This document shows, piece after piece, positions 39,302 through 60,800 of a stretch of 64,000 nt of DNA; the first letter of the stretch is position 1, and each line of letters starts with the position of its first letter. Location of the stretch: the NCBI RefSeq assembly GCF_021028975.2, contig NC_059430.1, positions 109,058,001 to 109,122,000 on the forward strand, given 5' to 3'. Under the pieces are notes generated by a model. It was not told the DNA's origin. It saw only the letters and a program-made list of their open reading frames with translations, and searched no databases. This DNA is from Sphaerodactylus townsendi (taxonomy: Eukaryota). The position numbers were made by a program, and so were the translations under genes.

Positions 39302-41843
39302 TCACCCAGCTTCCATGAAGAAGGAGACTTTCAGCAGTGCATCTGAGAAAAAAGAGCAGATGAAAGTCCTAGCAAGCTCCAGCAGATGCAGAGCCCCTCC
39401 CTGAGTGAGGGCCAAGCAAATAAAGCCAAATCAACTCAGAAAGGATCCAATGGCTAATACCCAGAAAGCTGATACAAGGTAGTGATTAAGAGGCTGGATC
39501 AGATGTCTGACCTCTGCAGTGAACTCTTAGCCCCCCTCCCCACCACTAAATGGAGATTATCCTGCCTTACAGGACTGTTAACATATACTAAGTACTCGAA
39601 ACATTCTAAATTGCTGTACAGTTTGCTATATAGTTATAGCAGCCTTAATAGCCCTGACCAGCCTGAAGTTGCCAGAGCTTAGAGGCTAAACAGGATTGGC
39701 CCTGGGTAGTACTTGAAATAGAAACTACCAAGGAACATCAGGGATGCTATGCTGAGGAAGACAATGGCAAAATAGTAATTGATCACAATAGGCAGGAGTC
39801 TTTCAATTTCTCTCTAATGCTCAGATTCTGGGGTCTCACACTGGCCTCCACACCCGTGAAGGCGAACTCCCCCTCATGGCTATGGTTACCTTCTACCACA
39901 GAGTGGCGGCTGTGCTGCAACACCTGCTCCCAGGCCGCTGGAAGAGTCTGCATCTTGGTCAAGTCTTCGTACTTGACCTGGAGGAGGAGCATCTTTACCT
40001 CCAGGTAGCTTTTCCAAGAGTTAAGGATGGCATAGAAGGAAGGGCCTAGGGAAGCTGGGACATAGGAAATATTGAACTCATGCCCTGTACAAATCAGAAC
40101 GGCAAACAGAGGAAGAGATGGGTGGAGCCATCAAGAAATGCTGAATCCTGCTACTGCTGAAGGGTAGGTTATTTTGAAAGCACTGCAAGCCTGCCCCCCT
40201 GCCCCAGCTTTCTCAACTTATGAAGGGTGAACAGTGGAGAAAGGGCACAACACATATATTGCATGCCGATGGCTCCAGTTTCAAACATCTCTGTAACAAG
40301 CCCAGGACCCTGGCATACTGCAGCCATTCAGAGCGGAAGATACTGGGTTAGAATCGCCATTTCAAACAGTTAAAGATATTCCAACTGGGAAGGGCTTGAG
40401 GGCCTGCAGCGCTCTCCAGCACTGCACATAATCTACAGTCTGTCAGCACAGGACAAATGTTGTTTCCTTTTCCCTCCGTTGTCTGGCTCCAGAAAACATC
40501 AGGGGCATAACTCTTCCAAAGGATGCATGCCATGATAAAACCCTTCCACATCCAGCAGCCACTCCAACATATCTGCCAATGACGGGCAAAGCACCGAGCG
40601 CTGGAAAGCCCTCTCCTGACACAGGTCTTCTTGCTGCTCATAGAGCTGGAAAATAGACGCCACGTGAACACCAACGGCATCCCGCACGTGTTGCAGCTCA
40701 AGTCTGTATACAAAACAGAGAACACATCATGAAAATGCAGCTATATAGAGCAACTCTGGACATCATAGGAAGTTCCTACAGATTTGTTCCCCAAATCTGT
40801 ATGTGCAAGCTCATTTGGAGATAAGGTGACTGCCACTTCCAGGGCAAGTCCAGCTGAATCTCTGTGGGTAATCCTTTCCTCAAGGACATTCCATGTCAGA
40901 ACATGGAAGCTAAGCAATGCTGGCTATGGTTAATATCTGGACAGGAAACCAGCAAGCAAGTCCAAGGTTGTTACACTGAATAAGGAAAAGGCAAGCTACT
41001 TCTGCTCCTCTCTTGCCTTGAAAAAACCCATGAGGGGTTGCCAGGGGTTAGATGCACCTTGGAAGGACTTTCCCCCACTACAATGAATTTGTGTTGATTC
41101 ACTGTGCTTCCCCACTTCCAGCAAATGGGACTCAGATTAACATTGTATGTCCAGCCTCAGTGATTTTGGACCGGAATGCCCTATGGATGGGGGCACCATG
41201 AGTCAGTTGTGCCTCAAAGGCACATTCTTCTTCAAGAAAAAATAGCACTTTTGAAATAACACAGTACATTGCAATGGGCTTGGATTGCTCATGTATGACA
41301 TACTAAACCCTTGTTCATAGGGTGGACCTTGCTCACTAAATTGCTGTGATGAGATTTCTAAGCATGCTGAGAACTGCTCTACAAAAATTAGTCAGATTTA
41401 TTTTAGTACTACCACAGTGATTTACACTGACAAAAGAAACAGCAACTACGTAGTTTATGATCATAGTAAAATTGGTGACTTTCAGTAGTCGCCTAATTCT
41501 TCTGATTAGCGTGCACAATTCCCCTCCTTGCACACCACATCACACCACACCACAGGTAGTCTTACAGTTTCCCCCATAGCTCCTCCAGCAAAGCTTCTGC
41601 TGCACATTGCTGGCGGCATCTGAGTCTCTCTGGTAGGCTTGAGAAGTCTCGCAGTGGGGTGTTGGCAAAGACCACTTTCTGGGATGCCTGCATCTGTTCT
41701 GCCAGATTGCTCAGCGAACCCAGAAGAGATGCACACGCAGCCAGGGCACTCTTCCAGGTCTCATGCTGTTCCTGGAGGGCACGAAAACACTTCTGCAGAG
41801 AACAGCGTAGGGGGTGAGGGAGAGAAGAGTCTTCTGAGGCCAT
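39302..41843 (-). CDS. AIRIM: AFG2-interacting ribosome maturation factor (C1orf109 orthologue), about 204 aa, 4 coding exons
   Basis: Exons 41566-41843 (MASEDSS..LQKCFRALQEQHETWKSAL..LLGSLSNLAEQMQA), 40527-40703 (..VRDAVGVHVASIFQLYEQ..PSLADMLEWLLDVE), 39890-40008 (YLEVK..QTLPAAWEQV) and 39302-39342 (DALLKVSFFMEAG*). Matches human C1orf109 motifs LSNLAEQ, PSVADMLEWL, LLNVSFFLEE. Intron 40009-40526 is U12-type GC-AG. Probable non-coding exon 1 donor at 43818/43817. Confidence 0.92.
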
Positions 41844-43729
41844 CCTAGGAGCAAACAAATGGAACTGAGCTGAAATGAGCCATGCTCAGGAAGCTCCATA
41901 GTCTCTGGTATTCTCAAACCCCATCCAAAGAGGCAACATGTTAGGTTGTTCTGCCCATCTCTCCCAGTTTACAGGTTCTTTGCCTCTAGCTCCTCCCTCA
42001 CCTAAAATTAGATAATGCAGCTGCCCTTCGTAGGGAACAGTTTATCCCATTTGTTTGATGCACTCCAGGCACATTTAGAGGGCTTGTACAGTGGAAGTTA
42101 TGACTAAGCTGCTGGTTATGATAGCAGAGGGAATGTGCAAGTTGAGTTTTTTTCTAGATTTAGGTTGATATTAACCCCATTTTCTTCTGCATTTTATTTC
42201 TGCTTCCACCAATTTCTATGAGGAACATTTCCACGCTGGACTTTGTTGCCTCCCTGGCTGGGAGTTCGTTTGTTTTTTTCAGAGATGGAATCCCTGACTG
42301 GCATATGCTGCCCATCAAATATTAGACAAATAGCACAAAGTGCTACACTTTTAAATCAAAATTATAAGTCTGATTTACAAGGCAGGCACAGAAAGGCATT
42401 TGGCAATCCAAGAAATCAACTGAAACTGACCATTGGAAGCCACAAGACAAAGCATGCATAGGCACTGTTTGCCTGTGGGGAAAAGTAAGCAGCCTTATAG
42501 AGCTGGTGTTTGGGCACCCACAAGGGGAAAGGCAGCATTGGAAGACATGGCAGCACAGCAGGCTCATTAAATTCTGCTTTACAGACAGAGGAAACTCATC
42601 TTGCTTGCACTGACAAACAGAAAACAGCACCAACTCATCTTTATGATTCTCCAAATTAACATATAAATTTAAATCAATTGCCTTAAGTAAAAACTAAGAA
42701 CCAAGAAGTGAGAAGGCAAAGGCTGGCACATGGGACTCTTCTGTGATTTTAACATGACACATAAACCTGACTTATTGCAAGTCAAACCCCTGGTACATCA
42801 AGGTCTTCACAGGAGAGTCTGATGATTATTCCAGTATATAATGTAATATACACATAACATATTTTCAGAGATGCATTAGTTGGTTAAATGTGACATCTTT
42901 TGTCCACAATTAATATATAAAATATTTTTATTGTTATGAAGTTTTATTCAATATCCAGATAGATTGCTAGTACTATTAAAACTGCATGAGACAGTTTGTC
43001 TACATAATGCATCTTCTGTTTACAAAAAGCAGCAGCCTGGCCAAGGTAACTGCTACAGCAACTCAGACAATTTCCTTGAACACCATGGACTCCTAGTGTG
43101 GAGAACACCGTGGTCAAGGTCTAGCATATTCTACCCCTTCTGCTCCCTGAATACCAACAATTCATTGTAGGGGACTGATTCAAGAGCACTTTAGTGGGGT
43201 TGCGGCATCGCCCAACTTGCCTGCATTAAAGGGCAGCTCTGCTCATCGCTGTTGCTGTAACGGCCTCTATATAAACAGATCGCTATCCTGCGGGAAACCC
43301 AGTACTAGCTGGGGCGGGGGCTGAGTGCTGCAATATTTGCTGCTAAGAGAGCCGGCGGATTCCTCTCCGTTCTGTGCCCATTGGCTGACGAAGTGCAACC
43401 CCAGGCAGGAAGTCATTGCAGGACGATGTCCACTTGGAGGGAATGAGGGGTGGGATGCAAGGGAAGGGAGGGAAGGGGACCCACCATCTGGACATGGCCC
43501 ACCCACCCTAGCAGGGGGAGGGGAGGGAAGGGTGGCGTGCAAGGGAGGGGAGGGAAGGGGACCCGGCATCTGGACATGGCCCACCCACCCTAGCAGGGGG
43601 AGGGAGGGGTGGCATTCAAGGGAGGGTTGCGCTTTTGTGCTGAACAGTGAAAATACCGGAGTCTTCAGCGGTGCATCAGATGCCGATCAGGAACGGAGGT
43701 CTCCAGTTAAAGGTTGAGTGAGTCATTCC

Positions 43730-45132: not shown

Positions 45133-45431
45133 TATATTGTCAAAGGCTTTCACGGCTGGACTCAACTAGTTGTGGTGGGCTTTCCGGGCTGTGTGGCTGT
45201 GGTCTGGTAGATCTTGTTCCTAATGTTTCGCCTGTATCTGTGGCTGGCATCTTCAGAGGTATATTACAGAGAGAGGTCTGTTATACACTGTGTCCGGTAA
45301 CTGGACACAGTGTATAACAGACTTCTCTCTGTGATACCCCTCTGAAGATGCCAGCCACAGATACAGGCGAAACATTAGGAACAAGATCTACCAGACCACG
45401 GCCACATGGCCCGGAAAACCCACAACAACCG
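45133..45431 (-). mobile_element. Penelope-like (PLE) fold-back element with hammerhead motifs, second copy
   Basis: Same family in the opposite orientation; near-perfect palindrome centred at about 45298; imperfect flanking duplication AATATGC(C/T)TT. Confidence 0.75.
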
Positions 45432-45799
45432 AATATGCTTTTGCTTACTGTGACTTCCTCATAGGAGACAAAAAGAGTTGCCCCCTCCTTATAACTGGCA
45501 AACTAGATAGCTGCTGGTACAAACACACACAAAAGACCAGGAGCACCATAAAGACTCACTAATACTCATTGCAGGGTGAGCTTTCATGAGTCAGAGCTAT
45601 TTCCTCAGATACAGTGGGTAGAACAAAAATAATTTCCTTCATTTTTGCACAGAAAAGAACAGAAGGGGGAAAGAGAAAGGAATTAAGCAGAGAGGCCTGG
45701 TTTGTGAAACTGCAGGGTTTGATTTTTATCCCCCCCCCCCCCAAACACACACACACACACGCTTTAATATATCTGTGAAGTCACTGGGAGAGGTCCTTA

Positions 45800-46715
45800 G
45801 GAGGTTTGGTTTGCAGTGTGGATGACACCCAGCAAATTCCCGCCCTACCACTTCATTCTCAGAAAGCTGATGGTTTAAACCGGTGTTTGAAGTCTGTAAT
45901 GGGTTGGACAAAAGTAAACAAACTCAAACTTAATTCTGTTAAGGCAGAGGTGCTCTGGGTGGGGAGAAAAGCAGATCAGGGACTTCTGATCTCTCCCCTT
46001 GAAAAGCAGCTGGGAGTGCTCCAGTGGTTAGGATTGCTTTTGCCCAGCTCAAGTGGGTATGCTGCCTGCACTCATATCTGGCTATAATTACATTCATTTA
46101 TTTTGACATGTTTTAGTTACATCTAGACTGGCCTGTTGCAATGTGCTCTACTTGGAGCTACCCTTAAAAAGTGTTCAGAAGCTGCAGCTTGTGCAGAGTG
46201 CTATGGATAGACTGCTGGTTGGAGCCAGTAACCGGGATCATGTGACTCTAATACTATAGCGATTACATTGGCTTCTGATCTGTTCCCCGGACCAATTCAA
46301 AGTGTTGATTTTGACCTTTAAAGCCCTATATGACTTGGGACTGGGACAGCTGAAGGACCGTCTTCTTCCATAAGCTCTTACCTGGGAAATACAATCACAG
46401 GGAAAAGCCCTCTTGACAATTCCATTGACCAAAGAAGCTCATCTCATAGGTGCATGAAACAGGGCCTTTCGGTGGCAGCCTCATGATTATGGAACAAACT
46501 CCCCAGGGATCTTTAGAAGGCAGCTGAAGATGGTCTTATTTGTGACTGCATTTGATTAGTTTCAGCTCTTCTGCTTAATGGCGCTTTTCAATTGTTGATT
46601 TTAAATTGGTGGGTTTTATGTATTTTACTACGTTCTGTTGTTTGCACTGTAAACCACCTTGAGTTCCTGCAAAGTAGACAAGCAACTAATAGACATTTCA
46701 AACAAATAATAGATA
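45800..46715 (+). mobile_element. L2 LINE 3' fragment
   Basis: Degenerate DDTQ..NKLKLN..RL.CCNVLYL.LPLKSVQKLQLVQ..LHWL..QFKVLILTFKAL and L2-type tail. Confidence 0.75.
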
Positions 46716-46884
46716 AATTAGGTGCCATGCTATATGCTGGGGGATTGATCCACTTGAATAGCTTATGAATAATGAGAGGGGCCAGAAGTTCTTGTCGAAG
46801 CAGCGGCTTACACACGAGTAGGACACCTTGAAGGGTGCAATGCAAACAAGAACCGAAAGACACACAGTCACCATGCAGTTCTGT

Positions 46885-48219
46885 TTATTTGCTAACTACC
46901 ATCAAAGTGCGCCGCCAGACACAGGTGTTTCCGAGCTCCTTTATTAGGTTGGCTAGTGCTCTGAAGTTCATATGGCCAAACACACGATGGTAATAATGTA
47001 TGCATTGGTCATGAGGAGGAACATTTGATACTGACACATTTGCTACCTTCTCAGACATACAGACAGTACTCATACCACTGTGTTCTAAGTAATACAAGCC
47101 ATTTAACAGTTTCCCTTGCGCATACACAACACCATTCTTAGATATGGTACATGCTTGTTCAGCAAAAGTAACAACATACCCATCTGTCGTCATTTTAGCG
47201 ACGCTAAGCAAACAGTATTCAAACAGGGGCGCATAGAGGACGTTTTTAATATGTCCATGCAAAGCAGGTACGTAAGCTGTTCCTTGCTTCTCCACAGAGG
47301 CTGGAGTCCCGTTTGCCAAACACACATGTTTGATGTCTGCGGTACGTTGATCCTCTGTCAGCAAATGCTCACGGTTCACAATGTGCATAGAACAGGCAGA
47401 GTCAATGAGCCAAGTTCCATCTCTGTCCTTGTCGTTGCACGTGACCAAAAAAGCAGACGAAGAAGAGGCAGAGTCCCCTCTCCCAGGACCCTTCTTCTGT
47501 CTCTGTTTGGGCTTACGTCGGTCCAGCACTTTCACGCATGCTCTTGCCAGGTGGCCAGGAGCTCCACACCGGTAGCAACGCCTGGTCGCACAAACAGCAG
47601 GCAAGACGGACGAACTCTCAGGAGTTGGTTCCCTCTGAGGCTCGGCAACGCTCTTCTGGAATTCCCTCTGTCGCTCGCAATCCAGCAGCTTCGAGGTGAC
47701 GTAGTCCAGAGTTAAGACGGCATCCGCAACCGTCTGGAGGCTGCTGACCAACGACTCCCATGATTCGTCCAGCGACGAAATCAGCAGGTAGGCTTTATGT
47801 GAGTCCTCATAACGCAGCCCACGGTCAGCCAGCTCAGAAAATAAAGACCTCATTTTCTGTAGGTGCTCAGAGACGGAGTCACCTTTCCGTAGCCTGAGGT
47901 GATGCAACTGTCTTGTTAGTAAGACTTTCACTCCGACAGACTCACGCTGGTAGACGTCCCTGAGCAAGTTCCAGCATTCCGATGCAGACGCTGCGTCCTT
48001 GATATACAGCAGCTGGGAGCTCTCCACTGCCAGGATGATGGATGCTCTCGCCCGCTCCTCAGCTCTAATCTGAAAAGCGGAGGGCTGCGCGGGGAGTGGC
48101 GTCTCAACAAATGTCCACAAATCCTCACACAGAAGATAAGCTTTCATCTTCAAACACCAGGTCACATAGTTGTGCTCTGTCAGCCGCTCGAAAGGCAAGC
48201 CAGCAAAAGACGCAGCCAT
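46885..48219 (-). CDS. Copia Gag-protease polyprotein (truncated in the GAG-pre-integrase region), 444 aa
   Basis: Uninterrupted ORF: N-terminal LTEHNYVTWCLKMKAYL..DLW (copia gag), UBN2-type gag core, zinc knuckle CYRCGAPGHLARAC, protease WLIDSACSMH, pre-integrase NGLYYL..YHRVFGHMN. It reads into the LTR and stops inside AATAAA. Confidence 0.88.
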   Translation of the reverse strand: MAASFAGLPFERLTEHNYVTWCLKMKAYLLCEDLWTFVETPLPAQPSAFQIRAEERARASIILAVESSQLLYIKDAASASECWNLLRDVYQRESVGVKVLLTRQLHHLRLRKGDSVSEHLQKMRSLFSELADRGLRYEDSHKAYLLISSLDESWESLVSSLQTVADAVLTLDYVTSKLLDCERQREFQKSVAEPQREPTPESSSVLPAVCATRRCYRCGAPGHLARACVKVLDRRKPKQRQKKGPGRGDSASSSSAFLVTCNDKDRDGTWLIDSACSMHIVNREHLLTEDQRTADIKHVCLANGTPASVEKQGTAYVPALHGHIKNVLYAPLFEYCLLSVAKMTTDGYVVTFAEQACTISKNGVVYAQGKLLNGLYYLEHSGMSTVCMSEKVANVSVSNVPPHDQCIHYYHRVFGHMNFRALANLIKELGNTCVWRRTLMVVSK

Positions 48220-48468
48220 AGTGCAGCCGTAAACTGTTTCGCACACAGCAACAAAAACAGTTACTCGCGTGTAAGGGCAGAATCTGGGCCCATAACCTGT
48301 CGAAGCAGCGGCTTACACGCGAGTAGGACACCTTGAAGGGTGCAATGCAAACAAGAACCGAAAGACACACAGTCACCGTGCAGTTCTGTTTATTTGCTAA
48401 CTACCATCAAAGTGCTCCGCCAGACACAGGTGTTTCCGAGCTCTTTTCACTCAGTGGTCTGTGCCAAC

Positions 48469-48564
48469 TAATATACAAAACAGGTGCCAATCCGATGCCC
48501 ATGCCTTCTCAGTGTTTGCACACGTTACCCAGTTATGCACACAGCCCTGATATGCACACGGCAC
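48469..48564 (-). promoter_or_regulatory. LTR U3 promoter with three metal response elements, CCAAT and TATA
   Basis: TGCACAC at 48517-48523, 48536-48542 (TGCACACAGCCC) and 48553-48559 (TGCACACGGCAC); CCAAT 48487-48491; TATATTA 48475-48469 on the - strand. Confidence 0.6.
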
Positions 48565-50007
48565 TTGCAGGAGGGAGTGTCCACCTGTCATTTAGATCAT
48601 GTCCCATCTAAACACATGTTCTGACAGTTCTCTCACAATGTGGTAAAGATAAAAGTGCAATAAATTTAGATTACATAAACTAATTAGGGAGACAGTGTGA
48701 AGATTTAAACATTCCCATATCCTGGAAAAGTACATACCTTAAGAAGAGATTTAGTCAGATGAAAGTCTCTATCTGTGCTTAAAGGAGAAATGAGGCAAGG
48801 CTTTCGAATGCCAAGCCAGCTTCCAGCATGAAAATCTGCGATATCTCAAACTTCTGTACTTTCCAAAACTTGGTCTCCTGACCTAGATCCAAGTATGCAG
48901 TCCAGGATGAATACTGTGCAGCTGTTAGGCACATACAGTCAGGTGTGCTTGCTTTATCAATAATTTCTAAGAATCATCCTAGAACCTCATCACTGAAGGG
49001 CCAGTGTTTTATGCCAGATCAAATTTCAGCACAGTTTAGTCCAGGACAGCATCTCTTTCTACAAAATCCTTTTCTCATCTGCCCAGATCAGAGAGGTTTC
49101 ATCTGTGATTTCACAGGCAGGAAGTGAACCATGAGGACAGCAATGGAAATCTTGGGCATTAAGGAAACCAAGCAGGAAAGAGTAACCAATTATATCTGAG
49201 GCAGTAGGAGAGGCCAGGAGGATGGAGTAGAGTCCTGATTTGTCAGGGATTTTGGTTAAAGCAGTATCAGTGCAGTGAAGGGGATGAAAGTCAGTTTCTA
49301 AAGACCTGAGACGAAACAAAGAATAACCAATATGCCCTAAGATATTGTACAGGAAATGAACAGGGAGGATAGATTAAAGGATGGCTTTTAGAGAATTAAG
49401 GAAATGAGTGAACATGGGAAGGAAGGACCCAGAGGAGACAGTCAGGAGGATTGAAGGAAATATATGGAAGAGAGGGATGCGGGCAACAGGAGAGTCTGCT
49501 GACTGACTGAGAAGAGGGAACCACCTTAACTGTGGATTTCTGGCATTCAGCTCCAACCTGGTGAAGCTGATTAATAGCAAAGGGGGGGAAAGATCTGCAG
49601 GAGCAGCACATCACACCTCCTTTGATCCAGGGCTTTAACTCCTCTTCCCAGGGGGAGGTCACATGGCAGGAAGAATGCAGGCAGAGGCAACTTTTCACAC
49701 AGTTTCCGTTTTAATTACACTTGGCCAAGTGCAGCCTGTTACATGCTATGGGCCACGTCTGCTCAGCAGAGGTGGCTTAAAAACAGATTGGTCCCTAACT
49801 AAGGGGTATATTCCCAAATACATTTTTCAGTTCCTGGTATCCAGGTTGCCCTTGCTGTCTCCCCACCCCACCCCTGGGCCTTCCAATCCACATCCATGGC
49901 CAAGGACCAGAGCAAACATTTGTCCCTTTGCTCCTTCATAAACAAGTCCACTGACAGCAGTTTCCTGGAGAGCCACCAAACACTCAGTTGCACAAACAGG
50001 ATGAATT

Positions 50008-52635
50008 TTATAAACCAGATGACTCAGCTGTCAAACCATGCTTCTTTACCAGGACTTCAACAGTCTGGGTAAGTGCACTATGAAAAAATAGCAAGAGAGA
50101 GAGAAAGGAGTGAGAATAGAATAACCTGTTTCATGTCAGTATTCTTTCTTACTTTAAATATTTATTAGTGCCTCAAAATCTTTCCGACACCAGAAATGCA
50201 CACAAAGGACAAAAATAATCAAATTACAAAATACTTATTCTACAGAGACTTCCAGTTTCTTTTGTACCCAATATTAACTCTAAAAGCAATTTTAGAACTC
50301 ATTAAACCACCTAAATAAAATTAGATCTCTAGTCCCGTTACTGATAAAAGTCTCACTTTTATCTATTTTTTTACAATCCTTAACCTTCAAAACCACTAAC
50401 CATCAATTTATTTTTTCAGTTTTATCTAAATATTCTACCAATAGGGTTTCCAACTGTCAAAAAACTTAGTCCTGTGCTTTGAGTAACAAAGCTATCTCTG
50501 CCAACTCTAATACCTTCACCCATAATTCTTCAACTGTGGGAATAACTGGAATTTTCCATTTCTGTGTACATAATATATTCTTGCTGCTGCTGTCATATAT
50601 AAAAATAAAGTTCCATATTTTCTTTCCAGAGATCTATCCATAAGTGCCTTAAACCTTAGGTTTCATTTGTATATTTGGCTTTAAAATATTTTGAATTATG
50701 CTATGTATTGAGCTCCAAAATTCCTTAGCTTTTCCACAAGTCCACCATAAGTGACGAGAAGTTCCTTTTTGGTGTTTGCATGTCCAGCAATTATTTGAAA
50801 ATTTTTATACATCCTTGCCAGTTTGTCCAGTGCCATATGCCAATGTTACATCATTGTATAAATGACATAAGAGAGAGGAGTGAGTGAGAAGTGAATAATC
50901 TCAATTTTCAGTATTAGTTCTTAATGTAGACAGCACCAATATTGTGCTAAATTCTGATCTCTGGAAATCTGAACCCAGGTCTCCCAAGTCTAAGCCGATG
51001 AGCAGGTTAGAAAGGAGGATGCCACATGTGCCTCAGTTGAGCGAGCAAGCAAGAGCAAACACAGTGGTTTGTGAGCAGTCATTTCAGAGTGCTCACTTGG
51101 GCTCCCAATATTGCAGAAGGTTGCATAATCCCACCCGCTTTGATTGCAGTGCAAGGAGCCAGAAAGCAGTCTGAAAAGCCTCTAAAAAGCAAAACAGGAG
51201 AAAAAGTTGATACCAAAGAAGCAGCAAAGATCGATCAATCAATAAAGCACTGGGGAAAAGGACTGCATTTTTTTCCTTCAAAAGGCAAGTTCTGAGCATA
51301 CACTTTGGGAGGCCTTACCAGCCTGGACGAATAACCTTGAACTTGCCAGGGACAGAGAGGTCGACCACTGTGGAGCCCAGACGGCACTCTGGTCTCTGCA
51401 AGTCCCCAATCGGGCCTCCATCCACCACCAGTGCTAGATGAGGCCAAAGCTCTTTGAATTCCTGGAAGGAAGAGGGACAGAAGCATCTACACATTAAATG
51501 TACAGGTTGAGAATAAAGAAATGGCTAAGGGAACAGAAATATTAACTTTGAAAAGTACCCATCCAAAGGTACCAAATGACAGAAATAGTTTTATTGCAGT
51601 GAAATGGCTTTACTGTAAGTCTTAAAGGGAATGCTTGCCCCTCTCAGTGGCTCAACATGGGATGGAAGAGAGACCCATCCTGCACCTAGTGACACAACCT
51701 TTTTAGAAATTTTGAAGCCATGAGAAAAAGGCAAGATTCTCCCTATGGAAATGTACAGAAAAACTGAAATACATGCAATACTGACTTTACCAAACCTACC
51801 TTTACAATACTGCTTTAACGTAACACACATCACTTATTTCCAGCTCAACAAATATAACTGTGTTCCCAATTACTTGAGAGTAAATATGTTTTCCATAACT
51901 AAAATTATCACCAGTAAAGAGAGTGTCTGCACTGCATACAGATTCTAGTTTCTGCAGTCTAAGTGGTATGAAAAAATAGAAGCTGAAACCAGAAAAACCC
52001 AATTACTTAGAAAATGAAAAAGCTTAATATACAGAATTCTAGCCAAACTTAGGCCCCTTCCGCACACATAAAATGATGCGTTTTCAAACCTCTTTCACAA
52101 CTGTTTGCAAGTGGATTTTGCTATTCCGCACAGCTTCAAAGAGCACTGAAAGCAGTTTGAAAGTGCATTATTCTGCATGTGCGGAATGAGCCTCAGTCAC
52201 AGATAAACAATAAGTTTTGTAAATATGTTGTGTGTCTACAACACTTGGGAATTAATATTCTAGGATGTACATTTTGATACATATCTTTACCCTACACTTT
52301 ATGAGAAAATGCTTGCTTGTTCCAAAAGAAAAAAAGTGTTGGAGTGGTTTTTTGGGGGGTTAACTTCTGGAAACTCCCCCTCACTCTTCTCCGGGTCTTC
52401 TCTTTTCTCTTCACACTCTCAGTTCCTCCCTAGGACTTCAGAAGGCCCTTACCGTGACTGTCAGGCTGCTTTTCTGGGAGCTGATGTTTGCACTTGTTAA
52501 AGCCAAGGGGGTGGCACATACTCTGGCCAGCTCCTTGATGAACCAGTGATCAGGGACACGAACACCAACTAGCTGTGAGGGAAAAGGAAGGGGCAGTCAC
52601 AGTCAAGTCTACCAAAAGCATCTGCACATGATAAT

Positions 52636-57889: not shown

Positions 57890-60800
57890 TCACTTGGGGA
57901 AGCTGCTGCCAAGCTCTTCATCCCTCTGCAGCAGGGCTTCAATGGGGCTGAGTGGAGAGGGGGCCTCGCGGTTCTGTAGGGAAAGGAAGTCGGAAACGTC
58001 CATGGCACTTAGGGATTGGGTCTGCGTATCTGACGGTTTCCCCGCCAGAGCGCTCTGCTCGCAGGAAGGAGGCAACGTGGAAGAGAGGGCAGCAGTGGAG
58101 GAGGCCGCAGCAATGGCAACAGGGAAGGACTGAGGTTGAAGCCCTGGTGGAGGAGGTTCCCCTGGGGGTTTGGAGTCAGATGTGGAACAGCTCTTCCCGC
58201 TGCTGGCTTTTTCTTTGACCAAGTCCCGGCAGGCACACTGGCACTGACAGGCTTCCTCTTGCTTGATGATGATCACGGGTAAGCTTAGGCCAATTTGCTG
58301 CACGGAGCTCCCTGAAGATAAAACACAGACATGTCAATCCAGGTTGTTTCTAGTCCTCAGAGTCATGGATGCAAAGATGTGGCTGCAGCGTTTTGGATAG
58401 TAAAAGGTAAAGTTTCCCCTTCAGTCGGATCCAACCCTGGGTTACCACTGCAAGCAGATTTTATAGGCAAGCCATTTTTGTGGGGTAGTTTGCCATTGCT
58501 TTCCCTGGCTATTCTTTACCCCTTAGCTATGAGCTAGGTACTCATTTACCGACCAAGGAATGGCTGGCTGGCTGAGTTGACCATGAGCCAGCTGCCAGGA
58601 TATCTGACCCACAGGGGGCTCGAACTCCTGACCGTGTGAGTGGCAGTGCAAACCTTTAACCACTATGCCACGCAGCTCTTGTTTTGGACAGACTCAGTAG
58701 CAAAGAAGCTTCTAGCAGCATGGCAAGGGTGGGCAACTTCCAACAACTGTTGCTGCTACCCACCTGTACAAACAGGACATGTACCACCCCCCCCCCCTCA
58801 GTATGCCTGATGGCACAGAGAGAGCCAGGATTCTGCTGGAGCAGAACACAGCCCTGGGAGTGTATGACTGATCAGGAAGCAGCAAGAGGCAGATAGCCAA
58901 GTACTACAGCACGGGTGCAGTGATTTGAATGTCAGACCAGAATCCAGATGACCCAAATTGGAATCCCCATGCTGCCTGCTGGGTGGACTTTGGGCCAGCC
59001 ACATACACATGCAGCCTGATACCTCACAGGGTGATTGTGATGACGGAATGGAAGACAGAAAAACAGCAGAAGATCTTTCGGTCCCCACTGGAAACAAAAG
59101 TGTGGCATAAATGAAGCATACAGATTACACTGGACCCAGGGCATTAATGCTCGAAAACAAACTAAGACAGCTGCAAAGAGATGCTTTCTTTCAACTTCAT
59201 TCGGCCCTCTACCTTGACTTGGCAGATCTGCCCACCTGCATCCATGCCACATTGGTACTAGACTATTGTAATGCACTCTACCTGTGTCTGCCCTTGAAAT
59301 CAACTCAGAGACTGCAGTTGGTACAGAATGCTCACAATCGACCATTATGAGGAGCTAGGTGGAGTATGCCCATTACTCCCATTCAGAACTCACTTCACCG
59401 GCTGCCCATCAGTTACTGCGTTCAATTTTAGATACTGCCTGTCACGTGGAAAGCCCCTCATAGCCTTGGACCCTCACATCTTCATGACCACTTCTCCTTT
59501 ATGCCACTACAACAGCTTCAATCATCTAATTAGGGCCTTCAACAAGTGCAACCAGGCAACTGGACAAGTTCAGCAACCGCCTGGGCATGTGCAGTCTCTG
59601 TTGTGGCCTTGTGCAATGGCCTGTCTGAGGAGGCACCCACTCTTCTGGCGTTCTGCAAACTACACAAAACAATTATTCAGGAGGACATTTTAATACAGAA
59701 AATAAGGCAAATAAGGTGATGGATTGCACCTGATCTCACTGAAAAAGGAGATTCCTGACGTGGTGATTAGCGGGACACCAGAAGAAAAACAATGGGATGC
59801 AATCCTCCCAAACAAGTCCTTTCCTTCCTCATGCCAGCCTCAGTGTGAGAACAGGCTGATTTGATGAGACCATCCCCTTTGGCGGAGGTGAAAAGTGCTA
59901 TCAAGTCACAGTTGACTCATGGTGATCCTATAGCAGTGGTGGCGAACCTTTGGCACTCCAGATGTTATGGACTACAATTCCCATCAGCCCCTGCCAGCAT
60001 GGCCACTTGGGCATGCTGGCAGGGGCTGATGGGAATTGTAGTCCATAACATCTGGAGTGCCAAAGGTTCGCCACCACGGTCCTATAGGGTCGTGGTGGTG
60101 AACCTATGGCACTCCAGATGTTCATGGACTACAATTCCCATCAGCCCCTGATGGGAATTGTAGTCCATGAACATCTGGAGTGCCATGTAGTCCATGAACT
60201 GATGGGAATTGTAGTCCATGAACATCTGGAGTGCCATAGGTTCACCACCACTGCTATAGGGTTTTCCAGGCAACATTCAGCGGTGACTTGCCATGTCTCT
60301 GGCTTGCCATGTCTCTGGATTTCCTTGCTGGTTTTCCAACCAGGTACTAGCCAAGGGGACCCTGCTTAGCTTCCAAGATCTGCTGAGATCAGGCTAGCCT
60401 GGGCCATCCAGGTCAGGGCGCATCCCCTTTTGCATGCTTTTTTTCAGTGTCAGGAAGCATGAATAAAGCACAGGACTCAAGCATCTTAATGCTACTTACC
60501 TGCATTACCAGCAACAGGCAAGGTAGTAGTAAAGAAGACATTCTCCACCACCGGGGCCTGCGACTTTTAAAGAAGAGAAAAGATACATTTCAGTGACTGA
60601 GCCATCTGGTCAGCAAGAATGCAGAAAAGACCCCAGGAAGTGGAGTCAGGCATGATCCTCCCACACTGGCCATGAGCCTTGAGGTCCCCAACAGGGAAAT
60701 ACAAGGGTGGACTGTTCCCCCTCCCTCAGCATATTCTCTGCTGGAACACCGAGTTGATATGCACCATTTGCTCCTGATTTTGGGGCATCCTGCTGGCACC

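What the first reader, a model, noticed from the sequence alone, without database searches (positions are those of the whole stretch)
46793..48626. Self-contained Gag-protease mini-provirus: intact 444-aa ORF terminating inside the LTR polyA signal
Seen: integrase core, RT, RNase H, PPT and 3' U3 are missing, yet the promoter LTR, PBS, a stop-free gag-zinc knuckle-protease ORF and a polyA signal remain. The TAA (46887-46885) lies within AATAAA (46889-46884). The LTR copies differ at 3/146 sites and CpGs are abundant, so the insertion is young. Inference: it could express capsid plus protease, giving empty virus-like particles, a dominant-negative copy-number-control factor, or a starting point for gag domestication. 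The well-known vertebrate domesticated gag genes (ARC, PEG10, PNMA) are gypsy-derived, not copia-derived.
Basis: partly seen in the sequence, partly recalled or inferred. Interest (0 to 1): 0.7.

Follow-up and report, generated by a model that had tools for sequence, protein, structure and literature searches.

The report
Truncated copia retrotransposon copy behind YRDC
This is a single copy of a recently active copia jumping gene that has lost about 2.8 kb of its middle; its capsid-protease frame is still open, likely because the copy is young, and the same shape arose separately in at least one other copy, so it is likely ordinary debris rather than a host gene.

Summary
The anatomy is real: 5-bp target duplication, full 329-bp 5' LTR, primer site, open 444-aa frame (copia Gag, zinc knuckle, protease, half an integrase zinc finger, 17 LTR-encoded residues) and a 146-bp LTR remnant. 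It lacks about 2.84 kb against full-length (4.67 kb) family copies. The junction occurs once in the genome. Four other copies have independent deletions into the 3' LTR; one (L043) keeps an open 537-aa frame stopping in the LTR. All three frames stop at or within 15 nt of AATAAA, so that overlap is about a 1-in-3 accident. 6 of 27 other copies are also open over the same 427 codons. Private changes (4 nonsynonymous, 3 synonymous) show no selection, at low power. A relative with 2.4% flank divergence has the empty site. The copy lies 1.07 kb past the YRDC poly(A) site, same strand; one likely-RNA assembly shows read-through up to the 5' LTR, but nothing tested expression of the frame. Verdict: likely a dead-end deleted copy; a Gag-protease restriction factor or young domestication is not excluded (about 5%). 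The scan's notes held nothing on it.

The parts
48627..48631 (-). Target-site duplication AGAAC, upstream copy
   Evidence: empty site in organism C skips 1839 = element + one copy
48298..48626 (-). Complete 5' LTR, 329 bp, TG...CA; TATA-like motif at LTR position 152 (48475), AATAAA at 233 (48394)
   Evidence: differs at 1 of 329 sites from solo LTR L069
48284..48297 (-). Primer-binding site GGTTATGGGCCCAG (match to the inner part of initiator tRNA-Met is recalled, not shown here)
   Evidence: tRNA test inconclusive
46885..48219 (-). Open 444-aa frame: 427 family codons plus 17 codons read from the LTR remnant
47656..48183 (-). Copia Gag capsid region (DUF4219 + Retrotran_gag_2, residues 13-188)
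   Evidence: Pfam E 3.7e-29; Drosophila copia capsid 8vvw E 2.1e-13
47536..47577 (-). CCHC zinc knuckle, residues 215-228, identical to open family copies
47176..47412 (-). Protease region (Pol_BBD, residues 270-348), DS motif as in L035, L038, L042
46939..47100 (-). First part of the gag-pre-integrase / integrase zinc-finger region; the two His are kept, the two Cys lie in the deleted part
46938..46943 (-). Deletion junction (about 2.84 kb missing); imperfect 5-nt microhomology, 4 of 5 letters alike; single-copy in the genome
46940..46945 (-). Second AATAAA inside the ORF, just before the junction; would give a stop-less RNA if used (untested)
46793..46938 (-). 3' LTR remnant (LTR positions 184-329), holds the stop TAA 46887-46885 inside AATAAA 46889-46884; 3 private changes, 2 of them CpG transitions
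46788..46792 (-). Target-site duplication AGAAC, downstream copy
49692..50077 (-). Host context: last exon of YRDC with poly(A) site at 49692, 1.07 kb upstream of the 5' LTR, same strand
   Evidence: Pfam PF01300 exons; splice joint 50077/51319 in 4 of 4 runs and T19 tail in X5
48597..49652 (.). Contig in run X5 (likely RNA) covering the gap between the YRDC poly(A) site and the first 30 nt of the 5' LTR: likely read-through
   Evidence: record 4: 1056 bp, depth 12.9, 0 differences; strand not shown by contigs

Best explanation
This is one copy of a recently active single-frame Ty1/copia family that lost about 2.84 kb, from the integrase zinc finger to LTR position 183, likely by microhomology-guided DNA break repair after insertion, and its frame is likely open through youth and chance rather than selection. 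Shown: the family, the size and ends of the deletion, the single-copy junction, the empty site in a relative, the open frame. Inferred: the copy cannot be recopied in this form, because its RNA would carry no purine tract and almost no 3' U3, the parts from which reverse transcription rebuilds both LTRs (established LTR-retroelement mechanism); since its 5' LTR is whole, the loss arose at the DNA stage. Inferred: about 11 (3-28) substitutions have hit the frame since insertion, which leaves it open with probability of roughly 0.2-0.5. Any fusion of an open frame to LTR position 184 stops at or just before AATAAA. Untested: the 5' LTR is likely silenced or occluded by YRDC read-through, and its own AATAAA may end that read-through before the ORF.
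For: Family: 45 matches from 40 scored of 830 candidates; 112 candidates for a gag piece, 802 for the LTR; full length 4672-4675 bp, two copies with 1297-1298-aa frames. Junction 33-mer: 1 match at up to 2 mismatches. Of 36 fetched stretches, 14 other elements carry large deletions, no two with the same ends; 4 of them (L039, L043, L048, L059) end in the 3' LTR with target duplications intact. Their junctions show a 4-nt exact microhomology (L059), a templated repeat of about 20 nt (L043) and a C run (L048), typical of end-joining repair (interpretation from knowledge). L043 is a twin: 537-aa open frame, stop in the LTR, AATAAA downstream. 6 of 27 other copies spanning the region are open over the 427 codons; 6 of 13 among those with 7 or fewer indels. 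Strict private changes 4 N: 3 S against 22 N: 10 S pooled in 11 clean copies, Fisher p 0.67; against nearest sister L062 (795 bp) the branch has 2 N, 2 multi-change codons, 0-1 S. Empty site in organism C, flanks 29 differences in 1189 bases. Private LTR changes 4 of 475.
Against: Selection tests have very low power (7 sites). Against L032/L033 the branch to this copy has 8 N: 17 S (strict set 7 N: 11 S, pN/pS 0.19-0.25, p 0.0007-0.003); the sister branches show the same (9:16, 8:19), which I read as selection while the lineage was transposing, but the total of 8 N leaves room for only about 11 neutral changes, and 4 N: 3 S is if anything on the conserved side. The insertion ends are seen in 3 samples of 2 studies with no empty-site joint, so it may be fixed. 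The 5' LTR has 1 private change in 329 against 3 in 146 for the remnant (Fisher p 0.087), and the ORF shows at most 4 CpG-type changes, which would fit a less methylated 5' part. RNA reaches the 5' LTR in X5. The junction lies about 32 nt after the TATA-like motif, near the predicted start of R, as a reverse-transcription error would place it.
Confidence: 0.82

Rival explanations
1. Same defective status, other origin: the copy was born deleted. During reverse transcription the minus-strand strong-stop DNA (R-U5) would have jumped to an internal site of the RNA, and a normal plus-strand strong-stop from a second template would have supplied the whole 5' LTR. (Alternative for the origin step only; confidence is for that step.)
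For: Junction at LTR position 184, 32 nt after the TATA-like motif at 152, close to where R should start (spacing from knowledge). All 5 LTR-reaching breakpoints lie at positions 166-277, none in the first half (chance 0.03), and 4 of 14 other deletions end in the 3' LTR (p 0.045 against a uniform 10%). Ends and target duplications are intact in all five.
Against: Transcription start not mapped. L039 and L043 break at 166 and 168, before the predicted start. Search by the whole element favours copies with gag next to an LTR. A pattern search for LTR position 185 with any upstream letters (it excluded matches ending in T, so most normal LTRs) gave 7 places: this junction, 3 normal LTRs and 3 that proved unrelated to the family (2.5 expected by chance). 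Remnant differences are private, not borrowed from another subfamily (0 of the LTRs listed share them). Intermolecular plus-strand transfer is recalled for Ty1; search listed 1 paper, not read.
Confidence: 0.3
2. The copy is expressed from its 5' LTR and makes Gag-protease that forms empty particles or joins family particles and lowers transposition: a young restriction factor or a first step of domestication.
For: Capsid, knuckle and protease motifs match open family copies; homologue of Drosophila copia capsid, whose Gag+PR form self-processes and assembles (bioRxiv 10.1101/2023.12.20.572708, passages). Precedent: yeast DRT2, a Ty1' gag relic that restricts Ty1' (PMC10951436, abstract and section 5). 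Sits between two housekeeping genes; insertion seen in 3 samples; 5' LTR nearly unchanged.
Against: No selection signal, absent from a close relative, twin layout in L043, open frames common. DRT2 and p22 are truncated capsid C-terminal pieces, whereas this is whole Gag plus protease, which resembles the normal structural product. Rival AATAAA inside the ORF; upstream YRDC read-through may occlude the promoter.
Confidence: 0.05
3. The element matters in cis, not as a protein gene: its 5' LTR AATAAA would act as a back-up poly(A) site for YRDC read-through, giving a longer YRDC 3' end and shielding the downstream C1orf109-like gene.
For: YRDC poly(A) site at 49692 uses ATTAAA. X5 holds a 1056-bp contig from 49652 into the LTR (depth 12.9; YRDC mRNA contig 44.8) and no depth in bins 45500-46111 and 46520-46723 beyond the element; three RNA runs of organism C, which lacks the insertion, have no reads in 48764-49579.
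Against: X5's kind is not on record; one sample; contigs show neither strand nor ends; the contig enters the LTR by 30 nt, one short of the tool's bridging rule; intron 4 contigs have depth 4-9, so this may be unprocessed RNA. Organism C depth is low (about 1-17 reads per bin in the YRDC 3' exon).
Confidence: 0.12
4. An amplified gag-only non-autonomous subfamily, or a retro-copy of a spliced gag-protease message like that of Drosophila copia.
For: Relatives carry a donor-like AAG|GT at the left breakpoint; copia elements do make spliced gag messages (bioRxiv 10.1101/2023.12.20.572708, passages; PMC5580714, listing only).
Against: Junction single-copy; all other deletions have different ends. 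The LTR side is purine-rich with no pyrimidine tract, and a GT-AG join would give one G fewer than observed. A spliced RNA lacking U3 could not rebuild the whole 5' LTR.
Confidence: 0.02

Closest known systems
Internally deleted LTR-retrotransposon copies (decay by small-homology deletion; knowledge recalled, search listed 4 papers, none read)
   Same: Single-copy junction, short microhomology, intact outer ends and target duplication, many unrelated deletions in one family
   Different: The deletion fuses an open gag-protease frame to R-U5 and so leaves a promoter-ORF-poly(A) layout; seen again in L043
Drosophila copia (Ty1/copia; capsid PDB 8vvw, 8s41) and its spliced Copia-gag message (bioRxiv 10.1101/2023.12.20.572708, passages)
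   Same: Capsid homology E 2e-13; single gag-pol frame; product of similar content (Gag + protease, 444 aa against a reported 50 kDa isoform)
   Different: Copia-gag is made by splicing from full-length elements and is shown to be expressed; this is a DNA deletion at one locus with no expression shown
Yeast DRT2 (domesticated Ty1' gag relic) and Ty1 p22 restriction factor (PMC10951436 abstract and section 5; PMC4599808 listing only)
   Same: Copia-type gag relic at one locus with an open frame
   Different: DRT2 is a capsid C-terminal fragment, widespread in strains, transcribed and shown to restrict; here whole Gag-protease, young, no function shown
Co-opted gag genes Crtg1-14, including Arc, RTL/PEG10, PNMA, SCAN (PMC8321522, passages)
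   Same: Gag frame without reverse transcriptase
   Different: Those are shared across deep clades and under purifying selection; all 7 animal cases are Ty3/gypsy, the 4 copia cases are in plants and fungi. This copy keeps LTRs and is absent from a relative 2.4% away
Active copia family of corn snakes (PMC11948899, passages)
   Same: Recently amplified copia LTR elements in a squamate-type genome, inserting in or near genes
   Different: 5832 bp there against 4.67 kb here; no sequence comparison was made

Membership tests
Ty1/copia LTR retrotransposon (derived copy) | Copia-type Gag with CCHC knuckle | tested here: met
   Retrotran_gag_2 E 3.7e-29, zf-CCHC over cut-off; PDB copia capsid
Ty1/copia LTR retrotransposon (derived copy) | Order protease-integrase-reverse transcriptase in the parent family | tested here: met
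   L035: Pol_BBD 270-348, rve 465-563, RVT_2 818-1058
Ty1/copia LTR retrotransposon (derived copy) | LTRs with TG...CA ends and 5-bp target duplication | tested here: met
   empty site in organism C
Ty1/copia LTR retrotransposon (derived copy) | Primer site complementary to the inner part of initiator tRNA-Met (copia-like priming) | tested here: inconclusive
   220 genome matches to the complement; 0 tRNA genes in 24 loci scanned, no tRNA family match in 20. The assignment is recalled
Autonomous copia element | Integrase core, reverse transcriptase, purine tract, full 3' LTR | tested here: not met
Non-autonomous amplified subfamily (TRIM/LARD-like) | Several copies sharing the deletion junction | tested here: not met
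   1 match; other deletions differ
Non-autonomous amplified subfamily (TRIM/LARD-like) | Primer site, purine tract and two full LTRs kept in cis | tested here: not met
   purine tract and LTR positions 1-183 of the 3' LTR absent
Domesticated gag gene (Crtg/Arc/RTL/PNMA type) | Present at the orthologous site across species | tested here: not met
   empty site in 1 of 1 clearly distinct relative laid (X7)
Domesticated gag gene (Crtg/Arc/RTL/PNMA type) | Purifying selection since insertion | tested here: inconclusive
   4 N: 3 S private, not different from sister copies, low power
Domesticated gag gene (Crtg/Arc/RTL/PNMA type) | Locus-specific transcript and protein | tested here: inconclusive
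   X5 contig reaches only the LTR edge; short private-variant contigs are not shown even for DNA runs that carry the copy
Gag-derived restriction factor (DRT2/p22 type) | Lowers transposition of its family in trans | not testable with these tools
   needs a bench assay
Gag-derived restriction factor (DRT2/p22 type) | Truncated capsid lacking the N-terminal part | tested here: not met
   capsid region complete from residue 13; feature taken from PMC10951436 section 5

The most novel reading that the evidence does not exclude
Deletions that fuse gag-protease to R-U5 repeatedly create ready-made Gag-protease genes in this copia family, and this one, parked behind a housekeeping gene, is expressed, fixed and damps its own family: the first copia-derived gag caught at the start of domestication in a vertebrate.
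Probability: 0.05. Interest if true: 0.72.

Novelty: new member of a known kind. Interest (0 to 1): 0.13.

Why it matters
As read here it is an ordinary broken copy and matters little; its use is as a worked control showing that a promoter-open frame-poly(A) layout arises by accident in young copia families (2 such copies among 37 stretches examined). If it were expressed and selected it would matter: the survey in PMC8321522 (passages) found all 7 deep animal gag co-options to be Ty3/gypsy, and searches listed no title on a copia-derived gag gene in a vertebrate (listings only; the library lacks most subscription papers), so a young copia case beside an active family would make early domestication testable. 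The YRDC read-through into the LTR is a small, testable cis effect.

Tried and rejected
No RNA holder was listed for the stretch; this is no evidence on expression. Raw RNA reads exist only for organism C, which lacks the insertion; they show low-level family LTR and gag reads and gave no usable start or end of R. Absence of contigs with this copy's private letters inside the element in X5 is uninformative, as DNA runs carrying the copy behave alike; no listed contig bridged the deletion junction in any run. Splice origin and amplified subfamily rejected. Two-template origin of the LTR differences not supported. Primer tRNA not found by ARAGORN or Rfam. Pattern search for other junctions at LTR position 185 found none. 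Earlier scan notes: 0 near, 3 unrelated in the genome, 0 by sequence. Only 40 of 830 candidates were scored per search, so copy counts are lower bounds. Many copies have 14-50 indels in gag but identical LTRs (for example L040, L044, L053); I read these as assembly errors, which makes 6 of 27 a floor. L066 was left out of the codon comparison as part of the same array as L065; L048, L059, L062, L063, L064 were left out of the singleton count for covering under 1000 bases. No fold, complex or large protein-database search was run; the domains were clear from Pfam and PDB sequence search. No supplements were read.
Full report
Observation. On the minus strand, 48626-46793 (1834 bp) is bounded by TG...CA and by AGAAC on both sides. 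It holds a 329-bp LTR, the primer site GGTTATGGGCCCAG, a 444-aa frame and the last 146 bp of a second LTR with 3 mismatches. Pfam finds copia Gag, a CCHC knuckle, the protease region and a sub-threshold piece of the gag-pre-integrase domain; the best solved relative is the Drosophila copia capsid (E 2.1e-13). The stop lies inside AATAAA as stated, and a second AATAAA lies in the frame just before the junction.

The family. The own genome (1.81 Gb; lizard-like is my inference from size and gene context) gave 45 matches from 40 scored of 830 candidates. I fetched 36 stretches and later 5 more, which held no closer gag sister. Full-length copies are 4672-4675 bp and two have frames of 1297-1298 aa with protease, integrase and reverse transcriptase in copia order. 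This copy lacks 2838-2841 bp, from the middle of the integrase zinc finger to LTR position 183, including the purine tract. Of 23 copies with two near-full LTRs, 13 differ at 2 or fewer sites: the family is recent and this copy is older than most.

Is the layout special? The junction 33-mer occurs once. Fourteen other elements among the 36 stretches carry large deletions with different ends; four end in the 3' LTR, at positions 166, 168, 227 and 277. L043 keeps an open 537-aa frame that stops inside the LTR ahead of AATAAA, so the layout arose at least twice. After position 184 the three frames first stop at 218, 228 and 235, and AATAAA starts at 233: the overlap is about one chance in three. 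Six of 27 other copies are open over the same 427 codons, 6 of 13 among those with few indels.

Age and selection. A solo LTR differs from the 5' LTR at 1 of 329 sites, a change private to this copy; the 3 LTR-pair differences are all private to the remnant, 2 at CpG. Four changes in 475 bases (0.84%, interval 0.23-2.2%) predict about 11 (3-28) changes in the frame and a chance of staying open of 0.20-0.46 at the point estimate (0.02-0.81 across the interval) for assumed indel shares of 5-15%. Strict private changes are 4 nonsynonymous and 3 synonymous; 11 clean copies pool to 22 and 10; Fisher p 0.67. Against the nearest sister over 795 bp the branch holds 2 nonsynonymous, 2 multi-change codons and 0-1 synonymous. 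Against more distant sisters the branch looks conserved (8:17; strict set pN/pS 0.19-0.25, p under 0.004), but so do the sister branches (9:16, 8:19); I read this as selection during transposition. Power is low, and weak selection since insertion is not excluded.

Other individuals and species. In one search, run X7 (organism C) has one contig joining 46786 to 48626, skipping the element and one target copy; its flanks differ at 29 of 1189 bases (2.4%). X1 and X2 (organism A, one study, perhaps the source of the assembly) and X3 (another study, flanks without differences) have flank contigs that run 26-32 nt into the element and show no empty-site joint; only X3's meets the tool's 31-letter bridging rule. 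So the insertion is younger than, or was unfixed at, the split from organism C, and is present in 3 samples. No rate was measured; with recalled squamate rates this is a few million years.

Host context. YRDC lies upstream on the same strand. The splice 50077/51319 appears in 4 of 4 runs and X5 has a T19 tail at 49692, 1.07 kb before the 5' LTR; the signal is ATTAAA. X5, likely RNA though not on record, has a 1056-bp contig without differences from 49652 to 30 nt inside the LTR (depth 12.9; mRNA contig 44.8; intron contigs 4-9) and no depth in the unique bins beyond the element. Three RNA runs of organism C have no reads in 48764-49579, at low depth. This fits read-through that ends within the element, or unprocessed RNA; strand and ends are not shown. 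A C1orf109-like gene follows. Nothing here tests transcription or translation of the frame.

Mechanism. Shown: a deleted, single-copy, lineage-restricted member of a recent family. Inferred from the known LTR replication scheme: both LTRs take U3 from the 3' end of the RNA and the plus strand needs the purine tract, so this form is a dead end, and the whole 5' LTR means that the loss arose at the DNA stage. The junction has an imperfect 5-nt microhomology and sister junctions show a 4-nt microhomology, a templated repeat and a C run, which points to end-joining repair after insertion (about 0.65-0.7 for this step). The rival is a faulty minus-strand jump completed by a second template (about 0.3): the junction is 32 nt after the TATA-like motif, and all five LTR breakpoints lie in the second half of the LTR, but two lie before the predicted start and no second junction at that position was found. 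A spliced-message origin fails on the acceptor side.

Comparison. It works, if expressed, like the spliced Copia-gag product of Drosophila, which self-processes and forms capsids (bioRxiv 10.1101/2023.12.20.572708, passages). It is not shown to be a member of the domesticated gag genes (PMC8321522, passages): orthology fails and selection is inconclusive. It differs from yeast DRT2 (PMC10951436, abstract and section 5), a truncated capsid fragment with shown activity. Recent copia activity in squamates is in print (PMC11948899, passages). Other papers were seen as search listings only; listings 27 and 56 showed no title on a vertebrate copia-derived gag gene. No supplements were read; those of PMC8321522 could list shallower co-option candidates.

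Verdict. Observation confirmed; interpretation partly supported as capacity, unsupported as function. New member of a known kind. Confidence 0.82 for ordinary debris; 0.12 for a cis effect on YRDC 3' ends; 0.05 for an expressed restriction or domestication role, which would deserve about 0.72. Interest 0.13.

Noticed in passing
L065/L066 (G000:C1267, 13 kb unplaced contig): Head-to-tail array of at least 5 units of 2584 bp, each an internally deleted copy of this copia family sharing LTRs, with open frames of 349 and 373 aa. May be a true tandem amplification or an assembly artefact.
   Followed up: partly
L043 (G000:C9:51585885-51588055): Independent twin: 5' LTR, open 537-aa gag-protease-partial integrase frame, stop at LTR position 177, AATAAA at 232, target duplication intact, junction with a templated repeat of about 20 nt.
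   Followed up: partly
window 48597-49692: Likely YRDC read-through past an ATTAAA poly(A) site up to the 5' LTR in run X5; no reads there in three RNA runs of organism C.
   Followed up: partly
L069 (G000:C8:60658636-60658964): Solo LTR with target duplication, 1 difference in 329 from this 5' LTR: the closest sister insertion found.
   Followed up: yes
family LTRs: Among close LTRs, positions 1-184 differ far more (6-17 sites) than positions 185-329 (0-5 sites); the boundary is near the predicted start of R.
   Followed up: no
L055 (G000:C1:44013250-44020250): Tandem arrangement: a deleted copy whose 3' LTR is followed by a primer site and a second gag frame of at least 825 aa.
   Followed up: no
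window 45169-45429: Inverted repeat with 130-nt arms, 92% complementary, 1 nt apart; possibly a miniature DNA transposon.
   Followed up: no
L137, L139 (G000:C1:12.52-12.54 Mb): Long hairpins built from inverted pieces that resemble initiator tRNA-Met (resemblance recalled); no tRNA call, only sub-threshold microRNA-type hairpin matches. Also, most of the 100 listed matches end in A, likely the primer sites of other copia families.
   Followed up: no
window 41565-41885 and 57893-58333 (-): Neighbours: C1orf109-like exon downstream (Pfam CA109-like); an exon upstream that I recall as MTF1 (no Pfam hit, label recalled).
   Followed up: partly
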